64,000 bases of DNA from an uncultured Synergistaceae bacterium (lineage in GTDB: Bacteria; Synergistota; Synergistia; Synergistales; Synergistaceae): positions 2,790-66,789 of the forward strand of contig CAZNYN010000006.1 in NCBI GenBank assembly GCA_964577295.1, in the 5' to 3' direction. This document shows, piece after piece, positions 6,168 through 36,010 of this stretch; position 1 is the stretch's first letter, and the number at the start of each line of letters is the position of its first letter. Under the pieces are notes generated by a model. The model saw nothing but the letters and a program-made list of their open reading frames with translations. It ran no database searches and was not told the origin of the DNA. A program made the translations under genes and the position numbers.

Positions 6168-6168
6168 T

Positions 6169-16304: not shown

Positions 16305-19130
16305 TTACTTCGTTTCTTTCAGCCCCGCAAGAATCTTTTCGGGTTTGGCCGGTATGGATGTTATGCGCACGCCGCAAGCGTCATGTATCGCATTGCAGAC
16401 TGCAACGTGAGGTGCGGAAAGCGGCATTTCACCCGTTCCCGAAGCACCGAACGGCCCGAGGGGACGCGGTGTCTCGACATGGATAAGCTTTATGTCATCG
16501 GGAATATCCTTAATGTAGGGGAAGCCCATTGTCACAAAGTTGTTGTACTTGCTTTCGTCAAGGAAGTCCTCTGTAAGAGCGAGGCCTATTCCCTGAGCGA
16601 CTCCGCCTATCTGCTGTCCGTCAACTACAAGGTAGTTGTTTATGACGCCCACATCTCCCACGAGCACGAACTTCTCGCAGTGAGCCTTGCCTGTTTCAAG
16701 GTTTACGGAGACCATGGCAAGGTTGACTGCGAACATGTGGAAGCCGAAAGGCTTTCCAAGTCCTGTGTCTTTGTCATTGCCCGAGCAGACTTCCGTGCTG
16801 CCGTCGGCATTCTGAACCATCGCTTGCGTATAGCCTTCGTAGAATGTCGGAATTCCTTCCGCTGTCATTTCATCGTATGTACGGTATGTGCCGTCTTCTT
16901 TGCGCATGGCATCAAGAAGTTTTTTGCAGCTGTCCACTATGGCGTTTCCAACCATTACCTGTGAACGGCTTGCCGCGGCCGCTCCGCTGTTGGGGGCTTT
17001 AGCCGTGTCGCTCAGCACAAGCTTAATCTGAGAGGGATGAAGCCCAAGCGGTTTTAACGCTTCGTGCGCTGTGCCGACACAGCCTATGTCCGCGCCCTGT
17101 CCGTGGTCTTCCCATGTGTTGTAGATTGTGACGCCCTCTTTTGTAAGCTCGACATTGCTTGCTGCTTCGTCCGCTCCGTCGTCGTTTGAGTTGTAAATGC
17201 TGACTGATACTCCGACTCCGAACTTAAACTTGTCATTGCTCTTCTCCGCCGCTTCTTTCTTCATTTCTTCGTAGTAGGGGCGGGCTTTCTTCATCATCTC
17301 GGGCAGGGGAAATACTTCGGGGGCGTAGCCTGAGGGGAATATTCCCTTGGGATCTGTTGTGAATGGCTTCCACTCAAGGAGGTTCATCTCACGGAAGTCA
17401 AACGGGTCAATGCCGCACTTATTCGCAAGCATGTCCATAGCTGTCTCGCATCCCCAATATGTCTGAGGCGCTCCGTATGCGCGGAAAGCGGCGCTCCAGC
17501 GGTGGTTGCTCCAGCATGTGTAGCCTACTGCTCTCATATTCTCGTAAGCATAGGGTGAGAAGAAGAACTGACCGCCCTTGTTGGTCAGGTCGTTTGCGGA
17601 TTCGCTGTAAGGTCCGTGGTCGACCCAGTATGTTTGGTCGAGGCCTACGAGCTTGCCATTCTTGTCAGCGGCCGCCTTTATGTGCATAAGGAAGGGCGAA
17701 CGCTTTGGTGTACGGACATTGTGCTCCTTCATATTTACTCTCATATAGACCGGACGCTGACATGCTATCAGTGCCAAGGCGAGGTATGGTTCGTTTGTGG
17801 GAGCAACCTTATATCCGAAAGAGGCGCCCATGTTGTTCTGAATAACTCTTATCTTTGAGGGGGCAACTCCGACTCCGCGCGCTATCATCATCTGATGGCG
17901 GTAGACGCAGCAGGACTTTGACGCTATTGTTAGAAGTCCGTTCTCGTCATAGTATGAATATCCGCAGTCTGCTTCAAGCACCATGTGTGGCTGACGTGAG
18001 CTTAAAAGCTCCACATCAATCGAGTATGGTGCGTTTTCAATATCCTCTTTGGGGTCTTTGCCTTTAATGAAGGAACGCTTGTTCCATGCGTTCGGCATTC
18101 CGTCGTAGCCTTCAAATTCGTCATAGACTTTGATTGCGTCGGGAGCCTTCGCCTGGTATATGTCGAGCAGTTCGGGCAGAGCCTCGTAATCAACTTTGAT
18201 TTTCTGCGATGCTGCGCGCGCGTGCTCTTCTGTATCGGCGCAGACAATGGCTATTACCTCGCCCCACTGGCGTATTTTGTCTCCCTCTTCTACCATTATG
18301 CGGCGGTCCCATCCGTCCGTAAGGGCGGAAGCACATCCCACCTGACCTCTGATTCGGTTTGTTCCCTTGTTCGCTTTAGCATCTTTGTATGTTACTACCT
18401 TGAATACACCTTCGCACTTCTCCGCCTCGCTTGTGTCAATCTTGTTGACCTTTGCGTGGCGTACTCCGTCAAGTGAGTACGGATATGCGAATAGGAATTC
18501 TTCGGGAAGCTTCACTCTGTCGTCATCGCCGAAGTCCCATGTTCCGGTTGCCTTATATACTGCATTGGGACGGGGATATTTTGAATTCCACACCGAGTCG
18601 CCCGGCTTGTACATCTTTGCCAAGTCCTCAATCTGCTCCTCGCCGCGCAAAATTGCGGCTGCTTTCATTACAGCGTCGACAATCTGCACATATCCCGTGC
18701 AGCGGCATGCCATCCAGTTCTTTGCAAACCAGTAGCGCGCCTCTTCTCTTGTCGGATTCGGATTTGAGTCAAGCAACGCTTTTGTGCAGACAACAAACCC
18801 CGGGGTGCAGAAACCGCACTGAATGGCTCCCGTAACGATAAAGGCCCACTGAATGGCGTGGATATTGTCGGGAGTTCCTATTCCTTCAACCGTAACTATT
18901 TCCGAAAATTCGGGAACATTCTTCCAGCGTGTGATACAGCCGCGGACAACCTTGCCGTTGAGGATAACATTGCACACTCCGCACTGCCCGCAGTCGCAGC
19001 CGCGTTTTGTGCCTGTCAGCTTAAGCTGGTCTCTTATTACGGTAAGGAGCGTTGTTTCGGGCTTGCCTATTACCCTGCGCGGCACCCCGTTGATTGTGAT
19101 ATTTTTTACATGGTACATTGATTCTGCCAT
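16305..19130 (-). CDS. Mop-type aldehyde oxidoreductase (N-terminal two [2Fe-2S] domains fused to a molybdopterin-binding xanthine-dehydrogenase-family domain, no FAD domain)
   Basis: Collinear by eye with my recollection of Desulfovibrio gigas MOP (about 907 aa): GCDCGQCGVCNV, CGFCTPGF, CRCTGY, WEDHGQGADIGCVGTAHEAL, GPFGASGTGE. The start at the MAESMY ATG is preceded by AAAGGGG. Confidence 0.85.
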   Translation of the reverse strand: MAESMYHVKNITINGVPRRVIGKPETTLLTVIRDQLKLTGTKRGCDCGQCGVCNVILNGKVVRGCITRWKNVPEFSEIVTVEGIGTPDNIHAIQWAFIVTGAIQCGFCTPGFVVCTKALLDSNPNPTREEARYWFAKNWMACRCTGYVQIVDAVMKAAAILRGEEQIEDLAKMYKPGDSVWNSKYPRPNAVYKATGTWDFGDDDRVKLPEEFLFAYPYSLDGVRHAKVNKIDTSEAEKCEGVFKVVTYKDAKANKGTNRIRGQVGCASALTDGWDRRIMVEEGDKIRQWGEVIAIVCADTEEHARAASQKIKVDYEALPELLDIYQAKAPDAIKVYDEFEGYDGMPNAWNKRSFIKGKDPKEDIENAPYSIDVELLSSRQPHMVLEADCGYSYYDENGLLTIASKSCCVYRHQMMIARGVGVAPSKIRVIQNNMGASFGYKVAPTNEPYLALALIACQRPVYMRVNMKEHNVRTPKRSPFLMHIKAAADKNGKLVGLDQTYWVDHGPYSESANDLTNKGGQFFFSPYAYENMRAVGYTCWSNHRWSAAFRAYGAPQTYWGCETAMDMLANKCGIDPFDFREMNLLEWKPFTTDPKGIFPSGYAPEVFPLPEMMKKARPYYEEMKKEAAEKSNDKFKFGVGVSVSIYNSNDDGADEAASNVELTKEGVTIYNTWEDHGQGADIGCVGTAHEALKPLGLHPSQIKLVLSDTAKAPNSGAAAASRSQVMVGNAIVDSCKKLLDAMRKEDGTYRTYDEMTAEGIPTFYEGYTQAMVQNADGSTEVCSGNDKDTGLGKPFGFHMFAVNLAMVSVNLETGKAHCEKFVLVGDVGVINNYLVVDGQQIGGVAQGIGLALTEDFLDESKYNNFVTMGFPYIKDIPDDIKLIHVETPRPLGPFGASGTGEMPLSAPHVAVCNAIHDACGVRITSIPAKPEKILAGLKETK

Positions 19131-19257
19131 TACAAAACATCCCCTTTCTCTTCTCGTCATCATGATGACAGCAATACCGCTCCCCTGTCTTGGATTCCGG
19201 ATTCAGCGAAAAGGAAAGATACAGAGCTACACTCGCACAACTGCGGCATAATCCTGT

Positions 19258-19391
19258 CCCCTTTCCAAGCTGAGCACTGTGAGTGCTCCGGGAGGTTTTC
19301 GCGTTTCCGCGAAAGCCCTTGCAGCTTCGAATGTGGCTCGAAACTGACAGGTCCTGTGCCTTAGAATCATCCTTAGGCTGCAGACTCGGGG
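19258..19391 (-). ncRNA. Moco (molybdenum/tungsten cofactor) riboswitch candidate in the 5' leader of the Mo-oxidoreductase gene
   Basis: The minus strand reads CCCCGAG...[hairpins CAGTTTCGA/TCGAAGCTG and TTTCGCG-GAAA-CGCGAAA]...ACCUCCC-[GAGCAC/GUGCUC hairpin]-AGC-UU-GGAAAGGGG. This matches the remembered Moco-motif core (CCGAG ... CCUCC ... AGC..GGAAAGG closed by P1). It is about 134 nt long and upstream of a Moco enzyme. Confidence 0.6.
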
Positions 19392-19433
19392 TTTTGCAAC
19401 TAAGTTGCAAATTGTAGTAAATTTTCTATACAA

Positions 19434-20860: not shown

Positions 20861-21142
20861 AAAAACAGCCCTCCCTTAATATAAATATAGTATCAGACAA
20901 GGTTAGACACCAATTCTTATCCGCCGTAAAGCAGAACGAATGATATAGTATAGCGCGTTAAAGACATATAAGTAAGATGCCTTTTTCTTCTACTTTCCTG
21001 GAATATCTCCAAATATGCATTATGCACAAAGCAGGGCAAAGCGATCGGAAGTGTTTTGTGCTCTACTTACAGTGACACTCATTGAATAAATCGGTAATAT
21101 GTACATGCTTTATATCCGTTTCTCAGATAAGGAGAAAAAATC

Positions 21143-23029
21143 ATGACTTCAGCTTTTACACTCGGTATTGATGTCGGGGGCACAAACACAGATGCTGCTT
21201 TGTTTGATGTGACCTTACAATCTGTAATATCTTCCGCAAAGACAAGAACTTTGCACTGCGACTATAAAAAATCTATAGACAAAGTTCTGTCTATTCTCTT
21301 GGAAAACAATAAAAATATCTGTGAGAACATATTATCGTGCAATGTATCAACCACACTGTCTACAAATGCGATACTGGAACATAAAGGTTCTCCCGTAAAT
21401 ATGGTATTGATAGGATTTGAAAAATATCCTCACATTACAGAAGATATAAAAAAAATCATATCTCCGAAATCAATACTATATATCAAAGGAGGGCATACAT
21501 CGTGGGGGCGCGAAAGAGAAAGTCTTGATCTGCGCGCCTTGGAAGCTTTTGCTTTGGCACACAGGGGAGAGCTCTTTGCCGTATCGGCCATGTATTCGCC
21601 GCGAAACCCGGAACACGAAATTGCCGCTAAAAACATGCTTGAAGAAATTGGGGCTCACTCTGTCACATGCGGTTATGAACTTGCCCATGCGAAGCTCAAT
21701 TCCGTGAAAAGAAGCGTTACCGCCTACCTTAACGCATCTTTAATTCCTATTACGGAAAGGCTGATAGAGGACACTGCATCAGCGGTAAGAAATCACGGAG
21801 TAACATCTTCCATTATGTTTATAAGAAGCGACGGTTCTCTCGTATCTTCCGATTGGTGCAGGCAATTCCCGATAGAGACCATATTTTCAGGCCCTGCCGC
21901 AAGCATAAAGGGTGCGGCGCGTCTTGCAGACAGTCACAGTACTGCATCCATGACAGTCATAGACATGGGAGGCACTTCTACCGATTTCGGAACCATCATA
22001 AATGGAAAAACCGTGTTCTCGGACAAAGGCGCTTCAATAGCTTCATACAACACTATGATACCGTCGCTTGAGATACAATCTATAGCACTCGGCGGAGACA
22101 GTATGGTACAAATTGACTCACTCGGGCTCATCTCTGTAGGGCCGGAGCGTGTCTTGCCTATATGCAGGCTTTGCGAAGACAATTTGTACAGTCCCGGCTT
22201 GGTAGAAGAGAGAATCAGAAAAATTGAAGAAAATTATTGTGAGCTTATGTTTGTGGTTCCGTCTCTGTCGGCTGAGCCAAAGTCTGAAACAGACAAAGAT
22301 ATATACGAGAAAGCTCTTAAATACCCCCACACAAAAAACGAGCTCGTTGAATATATTACATTTGCTCATCCGGAAATTTTATCCGCAGAAAGTCACGTTA
22401 AAGAGCTCTTAATGAGTAACCTTCTGACTATATCTTCATGCACCCCTACGGATTCTCTGAATGTAATCGGAGTGACGAAGGTGGGCGGTCCCGACCTGTC
22501 AAAGACGGCCCTGAGCGTTTGGGCAGCACGTCTTAATACATCACCTCATGATTTAGCAGAGATTATCAACTTAAAAACATGTGAATCGCTGAATGCGGAA
22601 TTTGTAAAAATTAATAAAAAGCATAAAACGGAAATGTCGGTGTACGTCGGAAATCCTTCAAGGCACTTCGTACCTAGGGAACCTATATCAGGAGAAATTC
22701 TTATACCGCGTGACGGCGGTGTTGCGGGAGCTATTGGGGCCGCGGTAAGTTCTCTTGAGCTTGAATGCACCATATTAGCGGCTCACTCCTTCAGTAATGA
22801 GACATACACAGCATTTCTTCCCGATTCTGCTGTTGCTGATGAGAGTCTGGATAAGTGCCTGGAAATGGCTGAAGCAAAAATTATTCCTTACCTGCAAAGT
22901 CAGGCAAAAAAAATGGGCGCCGATAAAATAACTGTTTCCATAAGAAAAGAGTTCACATATATCGGCAAAAATAACGAAAAGGATCATATATTGAGTGTGC
23001 TTCTTATTTGCTCCGCAAAATCATACTGA
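21143..23029 (+). CDS. Hydantoinase-A/oxoprolinase-family ASKHA ATPase-like protein (no HyuB partner)
   Basis: Two ASKHA phosphate-binding motifs, LGIDVGGTNTDAAL (N-terminus) and MTVIDMGGTSTDFG; 628 aa; AAGGAGAAAA RBS. Confidence 0.7.
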   Translation: MTSAFTLGIDVGGTNTDAALFDVTLQSVISSAKTRTLHCDYKKSIDKVLSILLENNKNICENILSCNVSTTLSTNAILEHKGSPVNMVLIGFEKYPHITEDIKKIISPKSILYIKGGHTSWGRERESLDLRALEAFALAHRGELFAVSAMYSPRNPEHEIAAKNMLEEIGAHSVTCGYELAHAKLNSVKRSVTAYLNASLIPITERLIEDTASAVRNHGVTSSIMFIRSDGSLVSSDWCRQFPIETIFSGPAASIKGAARLADSHSTASMTVIDMGGTSTDFGTIINGKTVFSDKGASIASYNTMIPSLEIQSIALGGDSMVQIDSLGLISVGPERVLPICRLCEDNLYSPGLVEERIRKIEENYCELMFVVPSLSAEPKSETDKDIYEKALKYPHTKNELVEYITFAHPEILSAESHVKELLMSNLLTISSCTPTDSLNVIGVTKVGGPDLSKTALSVWAARLNTSPHDLAEIINLKTCESLNAEFVKINKKHKTEMSVYVGNPSRHFVPREPISGEILIPRDGGVAGAIGAAVSSLELECTILAAHSFSNETYTAFLPDSAVADESLDKCLEMAEAKIIPYLQSQAKKMGADKITVSIRKEFTYIGKNNEKDHILSVLLICSAKSY

Positions 23030-23208
23030 TACGCAGCTTCGCGCCCTTTATGCATATTGCATAAAAAATCACCCTGTAAACAAAATTTTTTATATATTGC
23101 AAACAATGACTATTCTATATTTTTAAACTATTATCTTAGCAAATAGTAAGAAGATACAAAAAAGAACAAAACTATATTCAGCATTGCCATTCATCGGAGG
23201 CGTTAAAG

Positions 23209-24978
23209 ATGGAACACATTTTAAGAGACAAAATTACGGAGATTCTCCGCGGCGCAAGCCTGCCAAAGATGGCTGATGTGCTCAATGAGTCGAATGATAT
23301 AGCAAAGTCTATCACGATAACCCCTTCGTCTTTTATGAAAAAATATGATGTCACTTCAGAACTTGAATACAAAAAGAGGTGCGTAAAAGAAGGACGCATA
23401 ATGTACCACGCCCACATCGGCATGAACACGTGGCAGGAAACAGCCTGCGCCTTAAATGAAGTATACAAATTTGCCGAAGCAAATTCTTTCCGCCTCGACC
23501 GAGCGGGAATATGTCTGGACAGAAGAATGTCCTTGCCTCTCAGCATGAGAAAGTCTGTCCCTCAGGAGAGCGGCCCATACCTTGAAACAGAAGCGGATTG
23601 GATGCAGGTCGGGCAGAGTGCCCCGATACAGCCCCACATGGGAGACTTTATCATCGGATTTCCAGCATCGACAGAAAATGCTGTCTCCGCACTGAGAGCC
23701 GGGGTTACAACAGTAGGAAATCTTTCCCAGTTCTTTGCTCACGAGGCGCCTATGTGGAAAAGAAGAGATATAACTACAGTGGAAACAGTTAGAGCCATAG
23801 GCATTATGGGTTGTCTGCGCGACAAAGGAACCTTAATGCATTCATACCTTGACGACGGTTTTGGTGCTTTATTCCTGGACTGCAGTACAAGTGCCGCATG
23901 GGCTTACATGGAAAAATATATCGTCGAAAATCTGTTGGGAGCAAAACTGGCACACTGTGTCGGCGGTCTCGTCTCGGATCCGATCAAACGCTCCGGCTGG
24001 ATTTTCGCTCTTGACGAAATACACGAGCATGACTGCGTTGGTTCAATGTTCTACGGAGATACGATATCATCGGATATGAACCCTGAGAAAAATAGAGCTC
24101 TTACTGCAGAATACCTTATGTGGGACATAATGACACAGATAGAGTGCCCAACGGGGCACGCCCTTCTCCCGGTGCCTTTTACGGAAGCACAGAGAGCTCC
24201 TTCCCTTGACGAAATATGCGAAGTGCAGCTATGGGGACGAGAAATAGAAAAAATCGCAAGAAGGATGCACCCGCACTTTGATTTTACTGAGCCCAGAAAA
24301 TTTGCTTCCTTAATCTGCGCCAGGGGCAAAGAAGTTTTCAATAAAGCGATTGAATATTTTGCAGACTGTGGAGTAAATACCAAAGATGCCGTTGAAATGC
24401 TCTATCTTCTTAAGTGCATAGGGCCCAGAGCCTTTGAGGACGCTTTCAATCCTTCTGCAAAAGACGAAATCAGTACCAATAAAGAAACAAAGCCAATTCC
24501 GAATGATATTTTTACAAAGACACTTGATCAAGTGAAAATTTGGGCTCCTTTTTACAAAAGCAAGGAAGTTACAGACAAGCTCTCTGGACGCAGAGTGCTT
24601 ACAGCATCAACAGATGTACACGAACATGGACTGCTTCTTATCAATAAACTGCTGCAGCAGGCGGGATGCCATGTTTCAACAATCGGAGCAGAACGCAACC
24701 CTGATGAGGTCATACTTGAAGCTGCCTCTTCAAGTGCGGAGGCCGTATTCATAAGCACCCATAACGGAATGGCTCTTGAGTATGCACGAAATCTCATTGA
24801 TGAGATGGAAGAGCAGAACTTTAATGTCCCTGTCTGCATGGGCGGCGTTCTAAACCAGAACACCGAAGAAGGGACAGTGCCCGTTGATGTAAGTTCACTT
24901 CTTGAAGATATGGGCATAGCCATTGTAACAGATTTATCTATGCTGCCAGAACGCGCGGCAAAATTGTTTTCACACTGA
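23209..24978 (+). CDS. Cobalamin-dependent mutase-like enzyme (about 450-aa catalytic region fused to a C-terminal B12-binding domain)
   Basis: Canonical base-off/His-on signature DVHEHG (24613-24630), then 41 aa, STH, 26 aa, GG. This fits DxHxxG-x41-SxL-x26-28-GG. The N-terminal region loosely resembles my recollection of the glutamate mutase E / 2-methyleneglutarate mutase barrel (by eye only). Confidence 0.65.
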   Translation: MEHILRDKITEILRGASLPKMADVLNESNDIAKSITITPSSFMKKYDVTSELEYKKRCVKEGRIMYHAHIGMNTWQETACALNEVYKFAEANSFRLDRAGICLDRRMSLPLSMRKSVPQESGPYLETEADWMQVGQSAPIQPHMGDFIIGFPASTENAVSALRAGVTTVGNLSQFFAHEAPMWKRRDITTVETVRAIGIMGCLRDKGTLMHSYLDDGFGALFLDCSTSAAWAYMEKYIVENLLGAKLAHCVGGLVSDPIKRSGWIFALDEIHEHDCVGSMFYGDTISSDMNPEKNRALTAEYLMWDIMTQIECPTGHALLPVPFTEAQRAPSLDEICEVQLWGREIEKIARRMHPHFDFTEPRKFASLICARGKEVFNKAIEYFADCGVNTKDAVEMLYLLKCIGPRAFEDAFNPSAKDEISTNKETKPIPNDIFTKTLDQVKIWAPFYKSKEVTDKLSGRRVLTASTDVHEHGLLLINKLLQQAGCHVSTIGAERNPDEVILEAASSSAEAVFISTHNGMALEYARNLIDEMEEQNFNVPVCMGGVLNQNTEEGTVPVDVSSLLEDMGIAIVTDLSMLPERAAKLFSH

Positions 24979-25015
24979 TTCTATTAAAATATTAAAAGAG
25001 ACGGAGTGGTAGGTC

Positions 25016-26068
25016 ATGTTTAAAAAAGGAATGAATCATTGCTTTTCAGGCATATCGGCTGTATTTGCGGCTATTTTGCTTCTAACTGCGGTACAGTGCG
25101 CCGACGCAGCCCCGGTCGTGCTGAAATTTGCTGGACAAAATCCACCGGATCACTTTGCAACAGAATCAATGAGACAGATAGCAAAAGAAGTAAAACAGAA
25201 AACCAACGGCAGAGTGGAAATTAAAGTCTATCCCGCAAATCAGCTTGGAGACTACTCTCTTGTCTATGAAGAACTTATCCGCGGAACAATAGAAATGGCG
25301 TGTATATCTTTTCCAAGCCAGTTTGACAACAGAATGGACCTCATCTACGTTCAGGGATATACAAGCAGCTACGAACAAGTAGCCAAAGTTTACAACCCGA
25401 ATGGTTGGTTCTTCAAAAAAATGAATGAATTTAACTCAAGGCTCGGAGTCAAACTTCTCGGAATGTACCTTGAAGGAATGGTCGGAACATGCACAGTTAA
25501 AGAGATGAAAAACCCTCTTGACCCCAAAAAGGATAAAGGGATTCTGCTCCGCATACCAAATATGGACGTATTCAAAACCGCTCTTGAAGGAGCAAAGTTC
25601 AGAACTATATCCATACCTTTCGCCGATGTCTACCAGTCCCTTCAAACAGGTGTCTGTGACGGTGACACAGGCTACTCCATCGTAGCGGCCTACACTGCCC
25701 TCAGTGATGTAATAAAGCATTGGTACAATTTCAACAAAAATACAGAATGCCTTGGAATCATGATAAGCAACAAAACATGGGAGAAGCTGACACCTGAGGA
25801 TAGAAAAATTCTTCAGGCAGCTGTAAGCAAACAGGCGGCTCTCAGCATAACCAACGCAAAAGCCAATGACCGCAAATATCTTGAGCTTATGAAGAAGAAA
25901 GGCGTAAAAGTTCATATGTATACGACAGAAGAACTCCAGCCTCTGATGGACGCTTTTGCAGCCACATGGAGCCAGCTTGATGAAAGCAAAGGCAAAGAGC
26001 TCATGGATGAATTTAAGAAAGAGATGAAGAAAATTTCTCAGGAAGTAGCAAAAGAAAAGAAAAAATAG
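25016..26068 (+). CDS. TRAP transporter solute-binding protein (DctP family), secreted
   Basis: Signal peptide, then VVLKFAGQNPPDHFATESMRQIAKEVKQKTNGRVEIKVYPANQLG, which is typical of DctP-type receptors. No DctQ/DctM genes are adjacent. Confidence 0.8.
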   Translation: MFKKGMNHCFSGISAVFAAILLLTAVQCADAAPVVLKFAGQNPPDHFATESMRQIAKEVKQKTNGRVEIKVYPANQLGDYSLVYEELIRGTIEMACISFPSQFDNRMDLIYVQGYTSSYEQVAKVYNPNGWFFKKMNEFNSRLGVKLLGMYLEGMVGTCTVKEMKNPLDPKKDKGILLRIPNMDVFKTALEGAKFRTISIPFADVYQSLQTGVCDGDTGYSIVAAYTALSDVIKHWYNFNKNTECLGIMISNKTWEKLTPEDRKILQAAVSKQAALSITNAKANDRKYLELMKKKGVKVHMYTTEELQPLMDAFAATWSQLDESKGKELMDEFKKEMKKISQEVAKEKKK

Positions 26069-26296: not shown

Positions 26297-27739
26297 CTAC
26301 ACTTTCTTTTTCTCCAGAGGTTTGCTTTCGGCTACAAATTTTTCCAGCCTTTCTTTGGCTGATTTGTCGTGGCAGTAGACTCCGGCACCGTGTGAGCAGC
26401 CTCCGGGGCAGGTCATTACTTCTATTAGGTCGAATGGCGCTCCGTTTCTGGCGTAGGCTCTCATTTTTGCTATTTCCGCTTTGCTTGTACCGTTTATGCA
26501 GGAAGTGCGTATCTCTTTGCCTGCCGATACGGATACGACCGCTTTTGCCACTCCTCCGCTTGAGCCGAAGCCTCTTCCTTCTGCGGATGCTTCATTTTTG
26601 ATTTTGGCTTCTTCGCAGTTTTCGGGGTCTATGCCTGCCGCTATCAGTATGGAATGCAGCTCTTCAAATGTCATTATGAAGTCCACGCAGGAATCTTCCA
26701 GCGCTTCTTTTCTCTTTGCCACGCACGGGCCTATAAAGACGGTAAGTATTGCCGGATTTTTTGACTTTATCATCTCAGCCGTGTAGTGCATCGGAGTAGG
26801 AGTGTCAGAGACGTGCGGAAGCATTTCAGGGATGTGCCGTCTGACTGTCTGTATATATGCAGGGCAGCAAGAAGTTGTCATGAAGGGTTCGTTTTTTGCC
26901 ATGCGTTCGAGCAACTCTTCTGATTCTTCCTTGGCCGTTCTCTCCGCGCCGAGGGCTACTTCCACAACTTCGGCAAATCCGAGTTTTTTGATTGCAGTGA
27001 TTAGTTTGCCGTGTGATACGTCAAACTGCCCCGCAAATGCGGGAGCGGTCATTGCGTACACCGGGACAGAACCTTTGAGGGCACGAAGTATGTCCACAAC
27101 CTGGCTTCTTTCAAGTACAGCTCCAAAGGGACACGCCATTACACAGCATCCACAGCTTATGCATTTGTCGTAGTTTATTTTTGCGGCTCCGTGCTCGTCT
27201 TTGGATATGGCATCTACGGGGCAGTTTTCCTCGCACGGAACGGATATCTTTGCTATCGCCCCATAGGGGCATACTGTTTTGCATTTGCCGCAGTTTTTGC
27301 ATTTCGCTTTGTTTATATGTGAGCAGCCGTTTATTACATTTATCGCACCGAAGGGGCATGTCGTTTCGCATGGACGTGCGAGGCAGCCCTGGCAGAGTTC
27401 CGTGACATAGTACCTGGTATTGGCACAGCCTTTGCAGGCTATGTCTATTATTGTGAGGGGCGGCCCCTGTATTGTTTCTCTTTCGAGAGCTGCATCGGCG
27501 TATTCGAGAAGCGATGTCATTTCGTCATCTTCTTCCACGCTGAAGCCGAGGCCGGCGAGGACTCTGTTTCTGATTATGGCTCTTTCTTTATATACGCAGC
27601 AGCGATATTTAGCATCAGAACCCACGGGAATGCGTTTAAATGGCAGTTTTTTTACTCCCTGCCTGAAATTATCGCTCCAAAAAGCCCCTGCAATGTTTTC
27701 TATTATCCACCGCTTTGTGTTCATCAGGTGATTATCCAT
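26297..27739 (-). CDS. [FeFe] hydrogenase catalytic subunit with N-terminal Cys-rich extension and ferredoxin-like 4Fe-4S domains (possibly group B)
   Basis: The three H-cluster motifs are present: TSCCPAY, GPCVAKRKE and EVMTCPGGCSHGAG. Several CxxCxxCxxxCP clusters precede them. I chose the internal ATG (MDNHLMN) after GAGAGG. Confidence 0.8.
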   Translation of the reverse strand: MDNHLMNTKRWIIENIAGAFWSDNFRQGVKKLPFKRIPVGSDAKYRCCVYKERAIIRNRVLAGLGFSVEEDDEMTSLLEYADAALERETIQGPPLTIIDIACKGCANTRYYVTELCQGCLARPCETTCPFGAINVINGCSHINKAKCKNCGKCKTVCPYGAIAKISVPCEENCPVDAISKDEHGAAKINYDKCISCGCCVMACPFGAVLERSQVVDILRALKGSVPVYAMTAPAFAGQFDVSHGKLITAIKKLGFAEVVEVALGAERTAKEESEELLERMAKNEPFMTTSCCPAYIQTVRRHIPEMLPHVSDTPTPMHYTAEMIKSKNPAILTVFIGPCVAKRKEALEDSCVDFIMTFEELHSILIAAGIDPENCEEAKIKNEASAEGRGFGSSGGVAKAVVSVSAGKEIRTSCINGTSKAEIAKMRAYARNGAPFDLIEVMTCPGGCSHGAGVYCHDKSAKERLEKFVAESKPLEKKKV

Positions 27740-27887
27740 TTCAGCCCGCCTCTCTTTTTCCTGAAGCGGATAATATACCATTTGTGATTTGAATACAATA
27801 GACACACAATTTTTCGCAAGAGATGAAATTTAACAAATACTCTGTCGTGTTGTCTTTCACAAGGATATCGCCGATATATATGTCAAA

Positions 27888-28793
27888 TCAGCTGTGATTT
27901 GACGGAGATGTGTCCTTTCTGTATTCCTTGGGAGTTATTCCCAGCTCTTTTTTGAAGCAGACTGTGAAGTAGCTGCTGTTGCCGAAACCGGTACGCTGTG
28001 CAATTTCGGATATGCTCATATCCGCCGTTGTAAGAAGTTTTATGCTCTTTGATATGCGGTATCCGGTGAGGTATCTGAAAGGTGTTGTGCGCAGTATTCT
28101 CGAAAATATGCGGCAGCACTCCCCTTTGCTGATATGGGCCGACTCGGCAATATTTTCGAGAGTTATTTTTTCCGTATAGTTCTCAGATATGTATTCCAGC
28201 AGAGTTTTCATGCGCTTTTTGTCCGCACGTGATATTCTTGAAATATCTTTTAGTATTTCTTCGTTGTTTTTAACGATAATGAGCCATATTCTGCTTATAA
28301 TAACTTTGAGCTCAAGCTCATACCCATAGGAATGTTCATCCATTATCCGCGCCATCTCAAGAAGCGCCGAGCATATTTCTTTGTGCCACGGCTCTTGTTT
28401 TAGGAAGACTATCTGCAAACGGTCCGAAAGCAGCAGAGGGTCTATATACTCTCTTCTTACAAGGCTGCTGCTGTATCCCGATATCACTTTGGGGTCGAAA
28501 TTGACGCAGACGTATTCTCCCTCGCTGTCGTCAGTAGGCTCCGCCTCATGAAGGCAGCCTGAATTTATAAATACGCCCTCTCCTTCGAGGATGCGGCATT
28601 CATGTTCGGGAGAGCGAAAGACTACGGATCCTTTGGTGACAACTCCAATTTGTACTTCGTAGTGCCAGTGCAGAACGTATTTGCAGTGTTCGTTCGCGAC
28701 ACACTGTCTGTCCATCGAGAGGGGAAAGTCATCTTTTCCATGTTCCGTTAGCTCTTGAAGTGTAGAGTCCGTATATATGGGGCGAAATATCAT
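27888..28793 (-). CDS. AraC-family transcriptional regulator (N-terminal cupin-like sensor, C-terminal HTH)
   Basis: C-terminal AraC HTH (ENIAESAHISKGECCRIFSR...IAQRTGFGNSSYFTVCFKKELGITPKEYR). Start at the ATG after AAGGTGA. Confidence 0.85.
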   Translation of the reverse strand: MIFRPIYTDSTLQELTEHGKDDFPLSMDRQCVANEHCKYVLHWHYEVQIGVVTKGSVVFRSPEHECRILEGEGVFINSGCLHEAEPTDDSEGEYVCVNFDPKVISGYSSSLVRREYIDPLLLSDRLQIVFLKQEPWHKEICSALLEMARIMDEHSYGYELELKVIISRIWLIIVKNNEEILKDISRISRADKKRMKTLLEYISENYTEKITLENIAESAHISKGECCRIFSRILRTTPFRYLTGYRISKSIKLLTTADMSISEIAQRTGFGNSSYFTVCFKKELGITPKEYRKDTSPSNHS

Positions 28794-28855
28794 TATTATC
28801 ACCTTGGCACAGCTCATATATGTTAAATGTTCCGTCAATCTTACCACATCAGAAC

Positions 28856-28893
28856 AAATTTAGAGCCGAACATGAGAGTTCGGCTCTAAATTT
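28856..28893 (-). terminator. Hairpin terminator after the YfcC-family transporter gene
   Basis: 15-bp perfect stem AATTTAGAGCCGAAC / GTTCGGCTCTAAATT with a 6-nt loop. The U-tract is weak. Confidence 0.45.
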
Positions 28894-28927
28894 TACGTAA
28901 AATTTCTTAATTTTTGTTCAGATATTT

Positions 28928-30325
28928 TTAGAACGGGCCATATCCTATTGCCACGGATATCATTATGAACACGAGAGCGATAAGGCTCCAGAGCGAGAAG
29001 AGAGGGAGGAACCATTTCGCCCATGTCGTCCAGGGAATTTTTGCCATTGCGATAGCTGCCATTATCTCTGTTGATGTAACTGTCATGTTGTTTGAGAAGG
29101 CGTCGGCAAACTGGAAGCAGAGAACGGCTGTCTGCCTTGTAACTCCGACAACGTCCGCAAGAGGCGCCATTATCGGCATTGTTAGGGCGGCCTGTCCCGA
29201 GCCGGAGCTTACTATGAAGCTGATTATTGTCTGTACGACAAACATGCCTGCAGCGGCAAACGACGGAGGAAGAATTTTGACCATATAGGAGAGCCCGTTA
29301 ATTATTGTATCCATTACGTGGCCGGCATCAAGAATTACAACTATGACTCTGGCAAATCCGACTATAAGAGCGGCTCCGACAAAGTTTCCCGCGCCTTTTG
29401 TGAATTCCTGTGCTATCTCGTCGGGATAGAGTCCGCCAAGAACTCCCGCCACGACTGTCAGTATGATAAAGATTGCACCAAGCTCTTCAATATAGAAGCC
29501 AAGCTTGACAACTCCGAATACTATTGAGACTATAGCGGCTGTGAAAGCAAGGAGCACAAGCTTGTGCCTTGTTGTCATTTCGGGAATATTGTCTATGTCT
29601 ATGCGGAATTCGAGAGTCTTGTCAATTTCGTAAGTCGGGCTTTTTGTCGGATCTTTTTTAATTTTATTTGCGTAGAACCATACATACGCAATGCCGACCG
29701 CAACGATGACTACGTATATTATCGCTCTGAATTCTATTCCGGAGAAAAGGGGAAGACCGGCTATGCCCTGTGCGACTCCTATCGTGAAGGGGTTTGTAAG
29801 AGTTCCGGCAAAGCCCGCGCCTGCTCCGAGCATACATATCGCGACGGCGGTTATTGAGTCAAATCCCATTGTAAGACATATTGCCAGCACCATGGGCAGG
29901 AATACCAGCATCTCTTCTGCCATGCCTATGAAGCAGCCTCCGAGGGAGAATATGAACATCAGAACAGGAATCATTAAAGTTTCCCGTCCCGCCATTCGCT
30001 TTATCACAGACCCCATAGCAACCGTTATTGCGCCTGTAGCTTCCAAAACACTGAAAGCACCGCCTATAATAAGGAGGAAGAACATAATATATCCGGCTTC
30101 TTCCATACCTTTGGGGAATGACTTAAAGACACTGAAAAGATCTACGGGGGACTGTTCGATTGTGTGGAATGAATCAGCAACAACTACCATTCTTCCCGTC
30201 TCCGCGTTTTCCACCCTGTTAAATTCTCCCGCAGGCAGAACGTATGTGCAGACCGCTGCAATAAGGATTAGGGCGAACAACAGTGAAAGTGGTTCAAGCA
30301 TTGAAAACTTTCTTGTCTTTTGCAT
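28928..30325 (-). CDS. YfcC/DcuC-type anaerobic carrier family transporter
   Basis: 465-aa polytopic protein with a YfcC-like N-terminus (LSLLFALILIAAVCTYVLPAGEF...). Internal ATG follows GGAGGG. Confidence 0.7.
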   Translation of the reverse strand: MQKTRKFSMLEPLSLLFALILIAAVCTYVLPAGEFNRVENAETGRMVVVADSFHTIEQSPVDLFSVFKSFPKGMEEAGYIMFFLLIIGGAFSVLEATGAITVAMGSVIKRMAGRETLMIPVLMFIFSLGGCFIGMAEEMLVFLPMVLAICLTMGFDSITAVAICMLGAGAGFAGTLTNPFTIGVAQGIAGLPLFSGIEFRAIIYVVIVAVGIAYVWFYANKIKKDPTKSPTYEIDKTLEFRIDIDNIPEMTTRHKLVLLAFTAAIVSIVFGVVKLGFYIEELGAIFIILTVVAGVLGGLYPDEIAQEFTKGAGNFVGAALIVGFARVIVVILDAGHVMDTIINGLSYMVKILPPSFAAAGMFVVQTIISFIVSSGSGQAALTMPIMAPLADVVGVTRQTAVLCFQFADAFSNNMTVTSTEIMAAIAMAKIPWTTWAKWFLPLFSLWSLIALVFIMISVAIGYGPF

Positions 30326-30452
30326 GGTGACCCTCCTATGTATATTTAATGAAGCTGTTTTTGGAAGCATGATAAGTATTACTATTTTTGTGGAATTTTT
30401 CTATTCGGAGATTGACCGATTTTATAAAAATATTAACATAACATAAATTATC

Positions 30453-30515
30453 TATCTATTTAAGCTTAACCATGTTAAAATCACAAACCAGAATCTCGTA
30501 TATATCTATTTAAGC
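30453..30515. repeat. Two copies of the 13-mer TATCTATTTAAGC exactly 50 bp apart in a divergent promoter region
   Basis: Copies at 30453-30465 and 30503-30515 are identical and in direct orientation, between the YfcC-type transporter gene and pepD. Confidence 0.6.
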
Positions 30516-30540
30516 CGGATGGCTGAAAGGACTGAATTTT

Positions 30541-32019
30541 ATGACACGTTCATTTTCAAACACCGATGAACTTCTAACTCATACCGTTTTCCGCAACTTC
30601 GCAAAGATATGCGAAATACCTCATCCGAGCTTTCACGAAGAAAAAATAAGCGAATACCTTTATAACTGGGCAAAGGAGCGCTCACTTGATGTCACAAGAG
30701 ACAAGAGCAACAATATCTTTATACGCAAAGCAGCGACAAAAGGCTATGAAGACGCTCCCGCAATTCTGCTTCAGGCTCATATGGACATGGTATGTGTAAA
30801 GAGCGCCGACTCTGACCACGATTTTATTAATGACCCTATAACAATGGTACTGGACGGGGACATACTCTCCACAGGAGGCAAGACTACATTGGGCGCGGAT
30901 GACGGCATAGGCATGTCATACGCCCTCTCGGTTCTTGAGTCAGATACTCTTGAACATCCACCCATCGAAGCTCTCTTCACCACATCGGAAGAGGAAGATA
31001 TGGGAGGAGCTCTTAATTTCGACACATCACTGCTTAAGGCTAAGTACCTGATAAACCTTGACCACGCAGTTGACAGCGAAATTCTTACAGGAAGCTGCGG
31101 GGGCATAGGCATTAAAACTTTCCACAAATTAGAGAAAACAGTTGTTCCCTCAGATTGGAGCACCTTTGACATAAGCATAAGAGGCCTTAAGGGAGGACAC
31201 TCGGGAGAGGACATCCACAGAGGACACGGAAACGCGAGCATCCTTCTCGGCAGATTTATGGCTGAGTGCGTTTCAAAATTTCCCGTGCTTCTTTCATACA
31301 TTAAAGGCGGCACATTCAGGCTTGCAATCCCAAGCTATGCCGATGCGACAATATCTGCCGCACCTTCGGATATTCCGGCTTTAAAAGATATCGCTAGGGA
31401 AATGTCGGAAATCTTCGCAAAAGAGTATGAGGCTACCGCTCCCGATTTTACATTGACTCTTAAAGAAGCCGACAGAGCGGAAAGTGCCGTCTCCTATGAG
31501 GATACAAAAAAACTTATAACGACAATTATATTATCGCCGGACGGTATTTCGGAGATGAACGGCGGCGTTCCCGGAACAGTCGAAAGCTCCGACAACATGG
31601 GAGAAATGTACATGGAAGGAGACACTTTGATCATTATATATGAGATCAGAGCGTCTTTTAAATCGACACAGGAATACCTTGTGCGAAAGATAACAACTCT
31701 GACAAAAATGATGGGAGCTGAATACGAAACCTTCTCTGCATATCCAGGATGGGCTTTCTCGCCCGTCTCACCATTAAGAGAGACAGCTCTGCGAATCTAC
31801 AAGGAAAAGTACGGCTCAGACATGACAGTCACAGTTGTCCATGCCGGACTTGAAGTGGGATGCTTCATAGAAGGCAAAAGAGATCTGGATGCAATATCCA
31901 TCGGGCCGAACTGCTGGTATTTCCACTCTCCGTCAGAGTGCACAAGCGTATCTTCGGTCTGCAAAACATGGGATTTCCTATGTGCACTGCTTGCCGAAGG
32001 GAGAAGCCTGCCCAAATGA
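30541..32019 (+). CDS. pepD: Aminoacyl-histidine (Xaa-His) dipeptidase, M20 family
   Basis: PepD-like N-terminus (FRNFAKICEIPHPSFHEEKISEYL), LQAHMDMVC and GADDGIG motifs; 492 aa. Confidence 0.85.
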   Translation: MTRSFSNTDELLTHTVFRNFAKICEIPHPSFHEEKISEYLYNWAKERSLDVTRDKSNNIFIRKAATKGYEDAPAILLQAHMDMVCVKSADSDHDFINDPITMVLDGDILSTGGKTTLGADDGIGMSYALSVLESDTLEHPPIEALFTTSEEEDMGGALNFDTSLLKAKYLINLDHAVDSEILTGSCGGIGIKTFHKLEKTVVPSDWSTFDISIRGLKGGHSGEDIHRGHGNASILLGRFMAECVSKFPVLLSYIKGGTFRLAIPSYADATISAAPSDIPALKDIAREMSEIFAKEYEATAPDFTLTLKEADRAESAVSYEDTKKLITTIILSPDGISEMNGGVPGTVESSDNMGEMYMEGDTLIIIYEIRASFKSTQEYLVRKITTLTKMMGAEYETFSAYPGWAFSPVSPLRETALRIYKEKYGSDMTVTVVHAGLEVGCFIEGKRDLDAISIGPNCWYFHSPSECTSVSSVCKTWDFLCALLAEGRSLPK

Positions 32020-33234: not shown

Positions 33235-33357
33235 GGGAATTGTTCTCTAATGACGTTTTAGAGTTAAATGTTAGTAAAGTTACGAGGGATGAGCAGAGCA
33301 ATCCCTGTTTTGCTTACACAAATTTTTTTAAAATATATATTTAAAGGAGGAGAAATA

Positions 33358-34665: not shown

Positions 34666-34684
34666 ATCTTGGGAGGTGAAATTC

Positions 34685-35995: not shown

Positions 35996-36010
35996 ACCGG
36001 TTCTAAAATA

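What the first reader, a model, noticed from the sequence alone, without database searches (positions are those of the whole stretch)
21143..26068. B12-dependent mutase-like enzyme, hydantoinase-A-type ASKHA partner and orphan TRAP binding protein: a candidate uncharacterised cobalamin radical-enzyme module
Seen in the sequence: the 589-aa protein (23209-24978) ends in a textbook base-off/His-on cobalamin domain. It reads DVHEHG at 24613-24630, then 41 aa, S-T-H, 26 aa, G-G. Its N-terminal ~450 aa look only loosely like the glutamate mutase E / 2-methyleneglutarate mutase barrel. Where I remember the glutamate-binding arginines of GlmE (AQPRAG, ARHGTP), this protein reads MYHAHIG and IQPHMG, so the substrate is probably different. 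Directly upstream is a 628-aa protein with two ASKHA phosphate loops (GIDVGGTNTD, VIDMGGTSTD). It belongs to the hydantoinase-A family but has no HyuB partner. Established knowledge: carbon-skeleton mutase operons carry ASKHA-type chaperone/reactivase genes, for example MutL/GlmL with glutamate mutase. Inference: this ATPase may be the reactivase of the mutase. Directly downstream is a DctP-type TRAP solute receptor without DctQ/DctM, which hints at an organic-acid substrate. Spot GC counts on single 60-nt lines in this cluster (20/60, 22/60, 26/60) are lower than in the housekeeping block (33/60 in smc).
Basis: partly seen in the sequence, partly recalled or inferred. Interest (0 to 1): 0.7.

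Follow-up and report, generated by a model that had tools for sequence, protein, structure and literature searches.

The report
Uncharacterised B12 mutase-like enzyme module
Three adjacent genes in a Synergistaceae genome encode an unstudied vitamin-B12 enzyme that resembles the radical "mutases", an ATPase that probably services it, and a nutrient-binding protein; the enzyme belongs to a large, widespread family whose reaction nobody has identified.

Summary
Only the low-GC remark is weak.

The 589-aa protein matches nothing by sequence except its B12-binding domain. An AlphaFold model (pLDDT 89) shows a TIM barrel, a helical linker and a Rossmann domain. The nearest solved structures are methylmalonyl-CoA mutase, glutamate mutase GlmE and lysine/ornithine aminomutases.

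It belongs to an isolated family of about 590-aa proteins found in more than ten bacterial lineages, none with a specific name.

Gene linkage depends on the clade:
- The HyuA-like/B12/DctP trio is present in 7 of 7 fully flanked loci of the window's Synergistaceae clade.
- A second Synergistota clade has the order B12 then HyuA-like.
- Other phyla have a pyrroline-5-carboxylate-reductase-like gene instead, often with a GGACT-like gene.
- A 31%-identical Solirubrobacterales subfamily is followed by a true MutL/GlmL gene.

Best reading: a new family of adenosylcobalamin radical isomerase with an ASKHA accessory ATPase. The substrate is unknown, probably an amino-acid-derived carboxylate. It is a new variant of a known kind. 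A methyltransferase role and a metabolic role for the ATPase are not excluded.

The parts
21143..23029 (+). Stand-alone hydantoinase-A-type ASKHA ATPase (628 aa), the putative accessory or reactivating ATPase of the B12 enzyme. The ASKHA core is aa 7-335. The C-terminal ~290 aa have no Pfam match but carry conserved positions shared by both Synergistota clades.
   Evidence: Pfam PF05378 E 1.1e-23, PF01968 E 1.5e-31; MutL PF13941 only 19 bits, below cut-off. PDB 6yra 5-oxoprolinase E 3e-22 over aa 4-336. Phosphate-1, phosphate-2 and GGDS motifs are invariant, only two Cys are invariant, and there is no Fe-S motif. Adjacent to the B12 gene in all fully flanked Synergistota loci. No HyuB nearby.
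23209..24978 (+). 589-aa cobalamin enzyme of an uncharacterised family. Predicted (beta/alpha)8 barrel (about aa 60-330), helical linker (about aa 333-458) and Rossmann B12-binding domain (aa 462-589).
   Evidence: AlphaFold2 pLDDT 89.4, pTM 0.90. Foldseek: MCM E 1e-10, GlmE 1e-9, OraE 3e-8. Barrel alone: GlmE 7e-9, KamD 3e-8, OraE 2e-4. More than 800 homologues of about 590 aa. 503 representative clusters.
24613..24630 (+). DVHEHG, the DxHxxG base-off/His-on motif. H471 is the predicted lower axial cobalt ligand.
   Evidence: D469 and H471 are invariant in the subfamily and at least 90% conserved across the superfamily. They lie inside the PF02310 match.
25016..26068 (+). DctP-type TRAP solute-binding protein with a signal peptide. 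It is an orphan: no DctQ or DctM in the window.
   Evidence: PF03480 E 6.9e-43; NF037995 139 bits, cut-off 50. 37 nt downstream of the B12 gene. Adjacent in 12 of 13 loci of the window's clade. No DctQ/DctM hit in the window. Best solved relative only 74 bits, so no ligand can be inferred.
20861..21142 (.). 282-nt divergent intergenic region between the threonine ammonia-lyase gene (-) and the HyuA-like gene (+). Likely promoter region of the three-gene unit.
   Evidence: One weak sigma-70-like match at 21072-21100, 9 of 12 positions, and the whole scan found no more sites than shuffled sequence. No riboswitch was found between 19 and 27 kb apart from the Moco element at 19242-19403. The operon boundary is inferred only from gene spacing of 179 nt and 37 nt.

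Best explanation
The 589-aa protein is a member of a previously uncharacterised family of adenosylcobalamin-dependent radical isomerases. A single chain carries both the substrate barrel and the B12 domain, as in methylmalonyl-CoA mutase.

Proposed mechanism, all inferred:
- H471 of DVHEHG replaces the dimethylbenzimidazole base as the lower cobalt ligand.
- Substrate binding in the barrel, which is lined with His, Arg and Asp residues, triggers Co-C homolysis.
- The 5'-deoxyadenosyl radical abstracts a hydrogen atom and a 1,2-rearrangement follows. A rearrangement followed by elimination is also possible.
- The substrate is a carboxylate, probably derived from an amino acid.

The upstream stand-alone HyuA-type ASKHA ATPase is its accessory protein. 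It would use ATP to release damaged cofactor or reload the enzyme, the role assigned to MutL/GlmL for glutamate mutase.

The downstream DctP protein would capture the substrate in the periplasm for TRAP membrane subunits encoded elsewhere.

What is shown: the motif, the predicted fold, the family, and the conserved linkage.
What is inferred: adenosylcobalamin use, radical chemistry, the chaperone role, and the substrate class.
For: B12 domain motif and Pfam match.

Confident model with barrel, linker and Rossmann domain. Whole-protein Foldseek hits are led by MCM, GlmE and OraE. For the barrel alone the top hits are only AdoCbl isomerase barrels, GlmE, KamD and OraE, followed by KDO8P synthase and ThiC. 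No methyltransferase or amidohydrolase barrel ranks among the 50 listed hits.

No B12-binding_2 cap domain was detected.

HyuA-like and B12 genes are adjacent in 7 of 7 and 5 of 5 fully flanked loci of two Synergistota clades, with opposite gene orders.

The HyuA-like protein evolves much faster than the enzyme (41-45% against about 75% identity), as expected of an accessory protein.

A sister subfamily (31% identity, E 2e-92, collinear) is followed directly by a full-length MutL/GlmL gene (PF13941, E 1e-125 to 1e-138) in at least 52 of 77 loci. [quoted passage not shown]

ASKHA nucleotide motifs are intact and invariant.

Transport genes for carboxylates, peptides or amino acids accompany the family in several phyla: TRAP, SBP5-type ABC, AA_permease.
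Against: Nothing was tested biochemically, and no solved or characterised relative is closer than TM about 0.5 and 10-14% identity.

By sequence, the best PDB hit of the B12 domain is methionine synthase, a methyltransferase.

The HyuA-like protein fails the MutL model cut-off (19 against 27 bits) and shows no BLAST similarity to the true MutL of the sister subfamily.

Most family members outside Synergistota have no adjacent ASKHA gene. Distant stand-alone HyuA-like proteins occur without any B12 neighbour.

One locus (L085) places the enzyme next to a complete fused 5-oxoprolinase-type gene (HyuA plus HyuB domains), which hints at a metabolic rather than a chaperone link.

The subfamily-specific cluster of His and Cys residues at the barrel strand ends (H67, H69, H143, H211, H249, C250, H317) could be a metal site. 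That is unusual for class I mutases.
Confidence: 0.55

Rival explanations
1. The HyuA-like ATPase is a metabolic enzyme, not a chaperone. It would use ATP to activate or open a lactam-type compound (5-oxoproline or a related ring), as the A subunits of oxoprolinase, hydantoinase and caprolactamase do. Its product, or an activated intermediate, would be the substrate of the B12 enzyme.
For: Its best named relatives are the caprolactamase alpha subunit (NCBIfam E 9e-34) and 5-oxoprolinase 6yra (E 3e-22).

Family members in other phyla sit beside GGACT/AIG2-like genes, a fold that includes enzymes releasing 5-oxoproline. One sits beside an M19 dipeptidase::GGACT fusion and one beside a fused HyuA+HyuB oxoprolinase-type gene.

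Distant stand-alone HyuA-like proteins occur with OCD/mu-crystallin and DAO genes and no B12 gene.
Against: No HyuB partner exists in the window or in 30 related Synergistota loci. The C-terminal Hydant_A_C domain is not detected.

The pairing is restricted to Synergistota, while the enzyme works without it elsewhere. The protein diverges rapidly.

A true MutL occupies the equivalent position in the sister subfamily.
Confidence: 0.22
2. The 589-aa protein is a fused corrinoid methyltransferase: a substrate-activating barrel joined to a methyl-carrying B12 domain. The ASKHA protein would be an ATP-dependent activator analogous to RACo/RamA.
For: The top PDB sequence hit of the B12 domain is MetH 1bmt (E 3.5e-5), and MtaC and MtmC also match. 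MetH Fol+Cob structures match the full model at E 6e-8. URO-D (MtaA-type) genes lie near two family members. The subfamily-specific His/Cys cluster could bind zinc, as MtaB and MetE do.
Against: With the B12 domain removed, the best structural matches are AdoCbl isomerase barrels only. No MtaB, MeTr or MttB barrel appears among the 50 listed hits.

No cap domain PF02607 was detected. The ASKHA protein has no Fe-S or ferredoxin domain and only two invariant Cys.

There is no methyl-acceptor methyltransferase in the window. URO-D was seen near only two family members (L008/L009 and L011/L012) and is not among the recurrent neighbour clusters of the 78-locus survey. MutL linkage in the sister subfamily points to mutase-type biology.
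Confidence: 0.12
3. The enzyme is a PLP- and AdoCbl-dependent aminomutase of a new type. It would shift an amino group of a basic or omega-amino acid. A dehydrogenase encoded elsewhere (P5CR-like or SDR in other genomes) would then process the product, as Ord and Kdd follow OAM and 5,6-LAM.
For: The KamD and OraE barrels are nearly as close as GlmE (E 3e-8 to 2e-4; OraE rmsd 4.5 A over about 350 columns). A dehydrogenase-type gene (P5CR-like or SDR) is the most conserved neighbour. Amino-acid permease or peptide ABC genes are present. GGACT-like neighbours could release an amine such as lysine from gamma-glutamyl isopeptides (enzyme specificity from general knowledge).
Against: No lysine is invariant across the superfamily. 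The position corresponding, from my memory, to the PLP lysine of KamE/OraE (11 residues after the His ligand) is Leu here, and the nearby K480 is variable. There is no small S-type subunit. The KamE/OraE B12 domains were not among the sequence hits.
Confidence: 0.1

Closest known systems
Glutamate mutase GlmE/GlmS with MutL/GlmL (Clostridium cochlearium, C. tetanomorphum; PDB 1cb7, 1i9c)
   Same: Base-off/His-on DxHxxG...SxL...GG Rossmann domain. GlmE is the closest solved barrel (Foldseek E 7e-9, TM 0.50-0.53). An ASKHA-fold accessory gene lies in the operon. A sister subfamily is followed by a true MutL.
   Different: The two domains are fused in one 589-aa chain instead of separate E and S subunits. 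Identity to GlmE is 14%. PF06368 and the NCBIfam methylaspartate mutase E models do not match. The accessory protein here is hydantoinase-A type, not PF13941. No methylaspartase or mesaconase genes are nearby.
Methylmalonyl-CoA mutase (PDB 1req, 3bic, 8dyl)
   Same: Same domain order in one chain: barrel, linker, C-terminal B12 Rossmann domain. It is the best whole-protein Foldseek hit (E 1e-10, TMq up to 0.56).
   Different: 12-14% identity. The protein is about 130 aa shorter. No MeaB/MMAA G-protein chaperone is present. No CoA-ester genes lie in the window, and profile HMMs align only the B12 domain.
Lysine 5,6-aminomutase KamDE and ornithine 4,5-aminomutase OraSE (PDB 1xrs, 8t0v, 3kp1)
   Same: Barrel similarity close to that of GlmE (E 3e-8 and 2e-4). 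Base-off/His-on Rossmann domain. Amino-acid-type genomic context.
   Different: No conserved PLP lysine, no S or beta subunit, and no detectable sequence relationship.
2-Methyleneglutarate mutase Mgm of Eubacterium barkeri
   Same: From memory: a single chain of about 614 aa with a C-terminal DxHxxG domain, an N-terminal part that is not obviously GlmE-like, and a dicarboxylate substrate. In 2009 it had no homologue in sequenced genomes (PMC2667541).
   Different: No Mgm sequence was available to compare. None of the nicotinate-fermentation genes (methylitaconate isomerase, enamidase, dimethylmalate lyase) is in the window. The family-wide partners (P5CR-like, GGACT-like) do not fit that pathway.
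Hydantoinase/oxoprolinase A subunits (HyuA, OplA, caprolactamase alpha, acetone carboxylase beta)
   Same: The N-terminal 335 aa match PF05378 and PF01968, and the ASKHA ATP motifs are intact.
   Different: No HyuB partner anywhere nearby. The score is far below the curated NCBIfam cut-offs (117 against 1000). The C-terminal 290 aa are unrelated to Hydant_A_C.

Membership tests
AdoCbl-dependent base-off/His-on isomerases (class I mutases: GlmES, MCM, Mgm) | Rossmann B12 domain with DxHxxG...SxL...GG | tested here: met
   D469-V-H471-E-H-G474, 41 aa, S516-T-H518, 26 aa, G545-G546. PF02310 E 1.4e-12. D/H/GG conserved across the superfamily.
AdoCbl-dependent base-off/His-on isomerases (class I mutases: GlmES, MCM, Mgm) | (beta/alpha)8 substrate barrel of the cobalamin-dependent-enzyme type packed against the corrin | tested here: met
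   Predicted structure only. Eight-stranded barrel. Barrel-alone Foldseek: GlmE 7e-9, KamD 3e-8, OraE 2e-4, TM about 0.5. Full-length: MCM 1e-10.
AdoCbl-dependent base-off/His-on isomerases (class I mutases: GlmES, MCM, Mgm) | Binds adenosylcobalamin and catalyses a radical 1,2-rearrangement | not testable with these tools
   Requires purified protein, UV-vis/EPR and substrate screening.
Glutamate mutase E subunit (PF06368, NCBIfam methylaspartate mutase E) | Sequence match to the GlmE family model | tested here: not met
   No PF06368 or GlmE NCBIfam hit at E <= 0.01. The family profile does not reach GlmE chains in PDB. It is not a GlmE orthologue.
2-Methyleneglutarate mutase | Sequence orthology to E. 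barkeri Mgm and nicotinate-fermentation context | tested here: inconclusive
The context genes are absent from the window. No source name mentions it.
PLP/AdoCbl aminomutases (KamDE, OraSE) | Conserved PLP-binding lysine in the Rossmann domain, and a two-subunit architecture | tested here: not met
   No lysine is invariant across the superfamily. K480 near the expected position is variable. The position of the PLP lysine is recalled from memory. No second subunit gene is present.
MutL/GlmL accessory proteins (PF13941) | Score above the PF13941 gathering threshold | tested here: not met
   19.1 bits against a cut-off of 27, local match aa 245-290 only. No BLAST similarity to the true MutL of L105. 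It may work like GlmL but is not a member.
Hydantoinase/oxoprolinase (HyuA+HyuB) | HyuA ASKHA domains | tested here: met
   PF05378 E 1.1e-23 and PF01968 E 1.5e-31.
Hydantoinase/oxoprolinase (HyuA+HyuB) | Co-encoded HyuB catalytic partner, and the Hydant_A_C domain | tested here: not met
   tblastn with a HyuB domain finds nothing in the window or in 30 Synergistota loci. No PF19278 or PF02538.
TRAP transporter | DctP family solute-binding protein | tested here: met
   PF03480 147 bits. NF037995 139 bits against a cut-off of 50.
TRAP transporter | Adjacent DctQ and DctM membrane subunits | tested here: not met
   No DctQ or DctM homologue in the 64-kb window. Also absent next to the trio in L002, L003, L094 and L095.
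Corrinoid methyltransferase systems (MtaBC, MetH, MttBC with RamA/RACo) | B12-binding_2 cap, a methyltransferase barrel (MtaB, MeTr or MttB), and an Fe-S-containing ASKHA activator | tested here: not met
   No PF02607, PF06253 or Fer2/Fer4 domain in either protein. The barrel's structural neighbours are isomerases. The ASKHA protein has only two invariant Cys.

The most novel reading that the evidence does not exclude
The family catalyses a reaction type not yet known for base-off/His-on B12 enzymes. Its subfamily-specific His/Cys-rich barrel face (H67, H69, H143, H211, H249, C250, H317) might be a metal site.

In most phyla a P5C-reductase-like gene is tightly, often translationally, coupled to it, commonly with a GGACT-like gene and a peptide ABC transporter. 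This suggests a radical rearrangement or elimination on a proline-ring or gamma-glutamyl-derived metabolite that yields a cyclic imine. One possibility is a B12 counterpart of the glycyl-radical 4-hydroxyproline dehydratase paired with ProC. Another is a lysine-, DAP- or 5-oxoproline-type ring rearrangement.

Synergistota would then have added an ATP-driven HyuA-type repair protein and a dedicated periplasmic receptor.
Probability: 0.2. Interest if true: 0.85.

Novelty: new variant of a known kind. Interest (0 to 1): 0.62.

Why it matters
Only about a dozen adenosylcobalamin-dependent isomerase or eliminase reactions are known, and new ones are found rarely.

This family is large: 503 clusters at 50% identity. 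It is spread over Synergistota, Desulfobacterales, Chloroflexota, Alpha- and Gammaproteobacteria, Solirubrobacterales and other lineages. No source gives it a specific functional name.

Finding its substrate would add a B12-dependent step to amino-acid or peptide catabolism in gut, sludge, marine and soil bacteria. It would also give a use for B12 in organisms where its demand is not fully explained.

Two different ASKHA proteins accompany two subfamilies: HyuA-type here, true MutL/GlmL in the sister subfamily. This offers a natural comparison for working out what MutL/GlmL-type 'reactivases' actually do, which has been little studied as far as I know.

Cultured carriers make experiments possible: Cloacibacillus evryensis, Sulfitobacter sp. 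F26204, Rhizobium setariae and Maritalea porphyrae.

Tried and rejected
- Sequence searches for the N-terminal 450 aa found nothing outside the family: Pfam, NCBIfam, PDB phmmer, and PDB hmmsearch with a 46-sequence profile.

- Amidohydrolase-type metal barrel. I considered this because of HxH on strand 1 and His on strands 5 and 6. I rejected it as a classification because no amidohydrolase appears among the 50 listed structural neighbours and because the His set is subfamily-specific. A metal site is still possible.

- P0255 as a B12-MutL fusion (Rosetta-stone evidence). The locus is a long-read contig with a frameshifted MutL gene, so I use it only as evidence of adjacency.

- Ligand inference for DctP from solved TRAP receptors. 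The best hit is only 74 bits, and the pyroglutamate-binding Bordetella receptor 2pfy is among the weakest hits.

- Cobalamin riboswitch or other RNA element upstream: none found. Only a Moco riboswitch belonging to the neighbouring gene.

- Promoter and terminator scan: uninformative, with counts near those of shuffled sequence.

- Horizontal-transfer reading of the low GC: rejected.

- Literature. Nine full-text searches found no paper on this family. The E. barkeri nicotinate paper was not held.

- A metagenome scan with the broad alignment A4 failed for lack of conserved stretches. It succeeded with the narrower A5.

- My first neighbour table printed wrong offsets (about 2.6 kb or 3.7 kb) for genes that overlap the stop codon of the B12 gene. 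This was corrected.

Full report
**1. Observation**

The three co-directional ORFs are real: 21143-23029 (628 aa), 23209-24978 (589 aa) and 25016-26068 (350 aa). The gaps between them are 179 and 37 nt.

The 589-aa protein carries D469-V-H471-E-H-G474 at nt 24613-24630. Pfam B12-binding (PF02310) matches aa 463-555 at E 1.4e-12. The first ~450 residues match nothing in Pfam, NCBIfam or PDB sequences, even with a 46-sequence profile.

The 628-aa protein matches Hydant_A_N and Hydantoinase_A over aa 7-335 only (E 1e-23 and 1.5e-31). The rest is unassigned. MutL/GlmL (PF13941) gives a sub-threshold local hit of 19 bits.

The 350-aa protein is a DctP-family TRAP receptor (E 7e-43) with a signal peptide.

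The window contains no HyuB, DctQ or DctM.

The GC remark is weak. The cluster is 0.435 against a window mean of 0.472 (sd 0.028), and 13% of equal-sized windows are as low.

**2. What the B12 protein is**

More than 800 homologues were found, almost all about 590 aa. The only names given are generic, such as 'cobalamin-dependent protein' and 'hypothetical protein'. The window is about 95% identical to an uncultured Synergistaceae MAG.

An AlphaFold2 model built on 46 homologues is confident (pLDDT 89.4, pTM 0.90). It shows an eight-stranded beta/alpha barrel (about aa 60-330), a helical region (333-458) and a Rossmann domain (462-589).

Foldseek against PDB gave these results:
- Whole protein: methylmalonyl-CoA mutase over the full length (E 1e-10, TMq up to 0.56), then GlmE (1e-9), ornithine 4,5-aminomutase (3e-8), then MetH Fol+Cob fragments.
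- N-terminal 452 residues modelled alone (pLDDT 83.9): GlmE (7e-9), lysine 5,6-aminomutase KamD (3e-8 to 1e-6) and OraE (2e-4, rmsd 4.5 A), followed by KDO8P synthase and ThiC.
- No methyltransferase or amidohydrolase barrel ranks among the 50 listed hits.

By sequence the family is isolated. A profile of the barrel finds 503 representative clusters in 1.8 billion proteins. The full-length ones are about 580-620 aa.

**3. Family anatomy**

Within the window's subfamily many residues are invariant: H67, H69, D97, R98, D104, R105, R106, E120, Q141, H143, D146, N171, S173, Q174, H178, H211, S212, Y213, D216, H249, C250, K260, R261, H272, E301, D306, C313, T315, E326 and R329.

Across divergent subfamilies (23-41% identity) a smaller core survives. 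It includes R114, D146, D216, D224, E235, K/R261, T285, N295, E326 and E410, together with the D-x-H and GG motifs of the B12 domain.

The residues H67, H69, H143, H211, H249 and C250 lie at or just after predicted barrel strands, and H317 lies just before the last strand. This cluster is specific to the window's subfamily. It probably determines substrate or chemistry and could be a metal site. That is inference, because I could not inspect the model coordinates.

No lysine is invariant across the superfamily. This argues against a KamE/OraE-style PLP aldimine, although the position of that lysine is recalled from memory.

**4. Gene linkage**

I clustered the ORFs around 78 loci from species-representative genomes.

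| Group | Identity to window protein | Neighbours in fully flanked loci |
|---|---|---|
| Window's Synergistaceae clade | at least 70% | HyuA-like directly upstream and DctP directly downstream in 7 of 7 |
| Second Synergistota clade | about 54% | HyuA-like directly downstream in 5 of 5, often with GntR and a P5CR-like gene |
| Other phyla (Desulfobacterales, Vecturithrix, Anaerolineae, Aminicenantes, Alpha- and Gammaproteobacteria) | about 46-55% | No HyuA-like; P5CR-like gene (PF03807+PF14748) adjacent in 22 of 29, often overlapping the stop codon; GGACT/AIG2-like gene within 5 kb in 13 of 29 |
| Gammaproteobacterial clade next to glnD | about 46-49% | None of these partners |

More detail on each group:
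- In the window's clade the flanking genes differ between genomes. Here they are threonine ammonia-lyase and an [FeFe] hydrogenase; elsewhere they are patatin and CdaR. The trio therefore behaves as a unit. Cultured Cloacibacillus evryensis has it. One member of the clade (L021) has the order P5CR-like, HyuA-like, B12, DctP.
- In the other phyla the family often sits with an SBP5-type peptide ABC transporter, a TRAP system and a GntR regulator.
- Sulfitobacter has a compact operon: SBP5, two permeases, two ATPases, P5CR-like, B12 and GGACT-like, with a GntR gene on the opposite strand just downstream.
- Single loci add an M19 dipeptidase::GGACT fusion or a fused HyuA+HyuB oxoprolinase-type gene.

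The window has no P5CR-like or GGACT-like gene.

**5. The ASKHA partner**

The HyuA-like protein keeps invariant phosphate-1, phosphate-2 and GGDS nucleotide motifs. It has only two invariant cysteines, so it is not an Fe-S activase.

It diverges much faster than the enzyme. Among Synergistaceae it is 41-45% identical where the enzyme is about 75% identical. Cloacibacillus has a shorter 545-aa form.

The key new evidence comes from a sister subfamily in Solirubrobacterales:
- It is 31% identical and collinear with the window protein (E 2e-92).
- It sits in an operon ordered SDR, B12, MutL, metallophosphoesterase-like, amino-acid permease, TetR.
- The gene directly downstream is a full-length MutL/GlmL (PF13941, E 1e-125 to 1e-138) in at least 52 of 77 loci.

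[quoted passage not shown] So two subfamilies of one enzyme family are each paired with an ASKHA ATPase of a different family.

It does not prove it:
- The HyuA-like protein is not a MutL member.
- Most family members have no adjacent ASKHA gene.
- Distant stand-alone HyuA-like proteins occur away from any B12 gene.

**6. Mechanism and rivals**

Best explanation (confidence 0.55): a new family of AdoCbl-dependent, base-off/His-on radical isomerase. It acts on an amino-acid-derived carboxylate, is serviced by an ATP-driven ASKHA accessory protein, and is fed through a DctP receptor whose membrane partners are encoded elsewhere.

Rivals:
- The HyuA-like protein activates a lactam metabolically (0.22). 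The 5-oxoproline-related theme of GGACT and oxoprolinase-type neighbours favours this. The complete lack of HyuB argues against it.
- A fused corrinoid methyltransferase (0.12). The MetH-like sequence hits of the B12 domain and the possible metal site favour this. The barrel's structural neighbours, the missing cap domain, the missing Fe-S activator and the MutL linkage argue against it.
- A PLP-dependent aminomutase (0.10).

The substrate cannot be named from these data. DctP is too distant from any solved receptor to infer a ligand.

**7. Comparison and novelty**

The protein works like, and is built like, the class I mutases. It fails the sequence-membership tests for GlmE, and profile searches of PDB align only its B12 domain to MCM, not the barrel.

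2-Methyleneglutarate mutase is the one characterised enzyme I could not compare, because no sequence was available. Its context genes are absent here.

No paper describing the family was found in nine full-text searches.

I rate it a new variant of a known kind, with interest 0.62. It is a sizeable, phylogenetically broad B12 enzyme family with conserved partners, cultured carriers and an open reaction. There is no evidence yet of unprecedented chemistry.

Noticed in passing
window 19242-19403 (-): Molybdenum-cofactor (Moco) riboswitch, RF01055, 42.2 bits (gathering score 36), E 1.4e-7. It lies in the 5' leader of the Mo-dependent aldehyde oxidoreductase gene 16305-19163 (-) (NF045668, 1363 bits).
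   Followed up: partly
window 33268-37644 (+): Glycine/sarcosine/betaine reductase component B genes: PF09338 at 33268-34665, and a GRDB selenoprotein from about 34685 to about 35990. The GRDB gene has an in-frame TGA at 35726-35728 followed by GTCTRCGATM, which is a likely selenocysteine. A BCCT betaine/carnitine/choline transporter follows at 36124-37644. This is a candidate betaine reductase locus in a Synergistaceae genome.
   Followed up: partly
window 6490-9993 (+) and 11068-14601 (+): Two paralogous PAS/GGDEF proteins of about 1170 aa. They lie in the lowest-GC stretch of the window (0.41-0.43). Neither matches SMC domains in Pfam.
   Followed up: no
window 26297-27805 (-): Monomeric group B1 [FeFe] hydrogenase (TIGR04105, 529 bits), convergent with the DctP gene. 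An AraC regulator, a YfcC/DcuC-type carrier and a beta-Ala-His-type dipeptidase follow (27888-32019).
   Followed up: no
L176:897-8773: A metagenomic contig carries three paralogues of the B12 enzyme family close together (897-2684, 5203-6984, 6803-8773). This suggests local expansion and diversification of the family.
   Followed up: no
L063:9998-14212: In an Aminicenantes MAG the order is B12 enzyme, P5CR-like, then a single 550-aa protein that fuses an M19 membrane dipeptidase with a GGACT/AIG2 domain. This hints that the family's substrate derives from a gamma-glutamyl or unusual dipeptide.
   Followed up: partly
L096:4734-10002: A distant stand-alone HyuA/MutL-like protein (685 aa) sits between a GntR regulator and a DAO-family oxidase. 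An ornithine cyclodeaminase/mu-crystallin gene, a branched-chain-type ABC transporter and an MttB-family gene lie upstream on the same strand, and there is no B12 enzyme. The wider HyuA-like family may have a role in cyclic imino-acid metabolism.
   Followed up: no
L097:2692-5726: The 857-aa 'protein' P0255 in the public collection is a B12 family gene run together with a frameshifted MutL gene on a long-read contig. It is an assembly or gene-calling artefact rather than a true fusion.
   Followed up: yes
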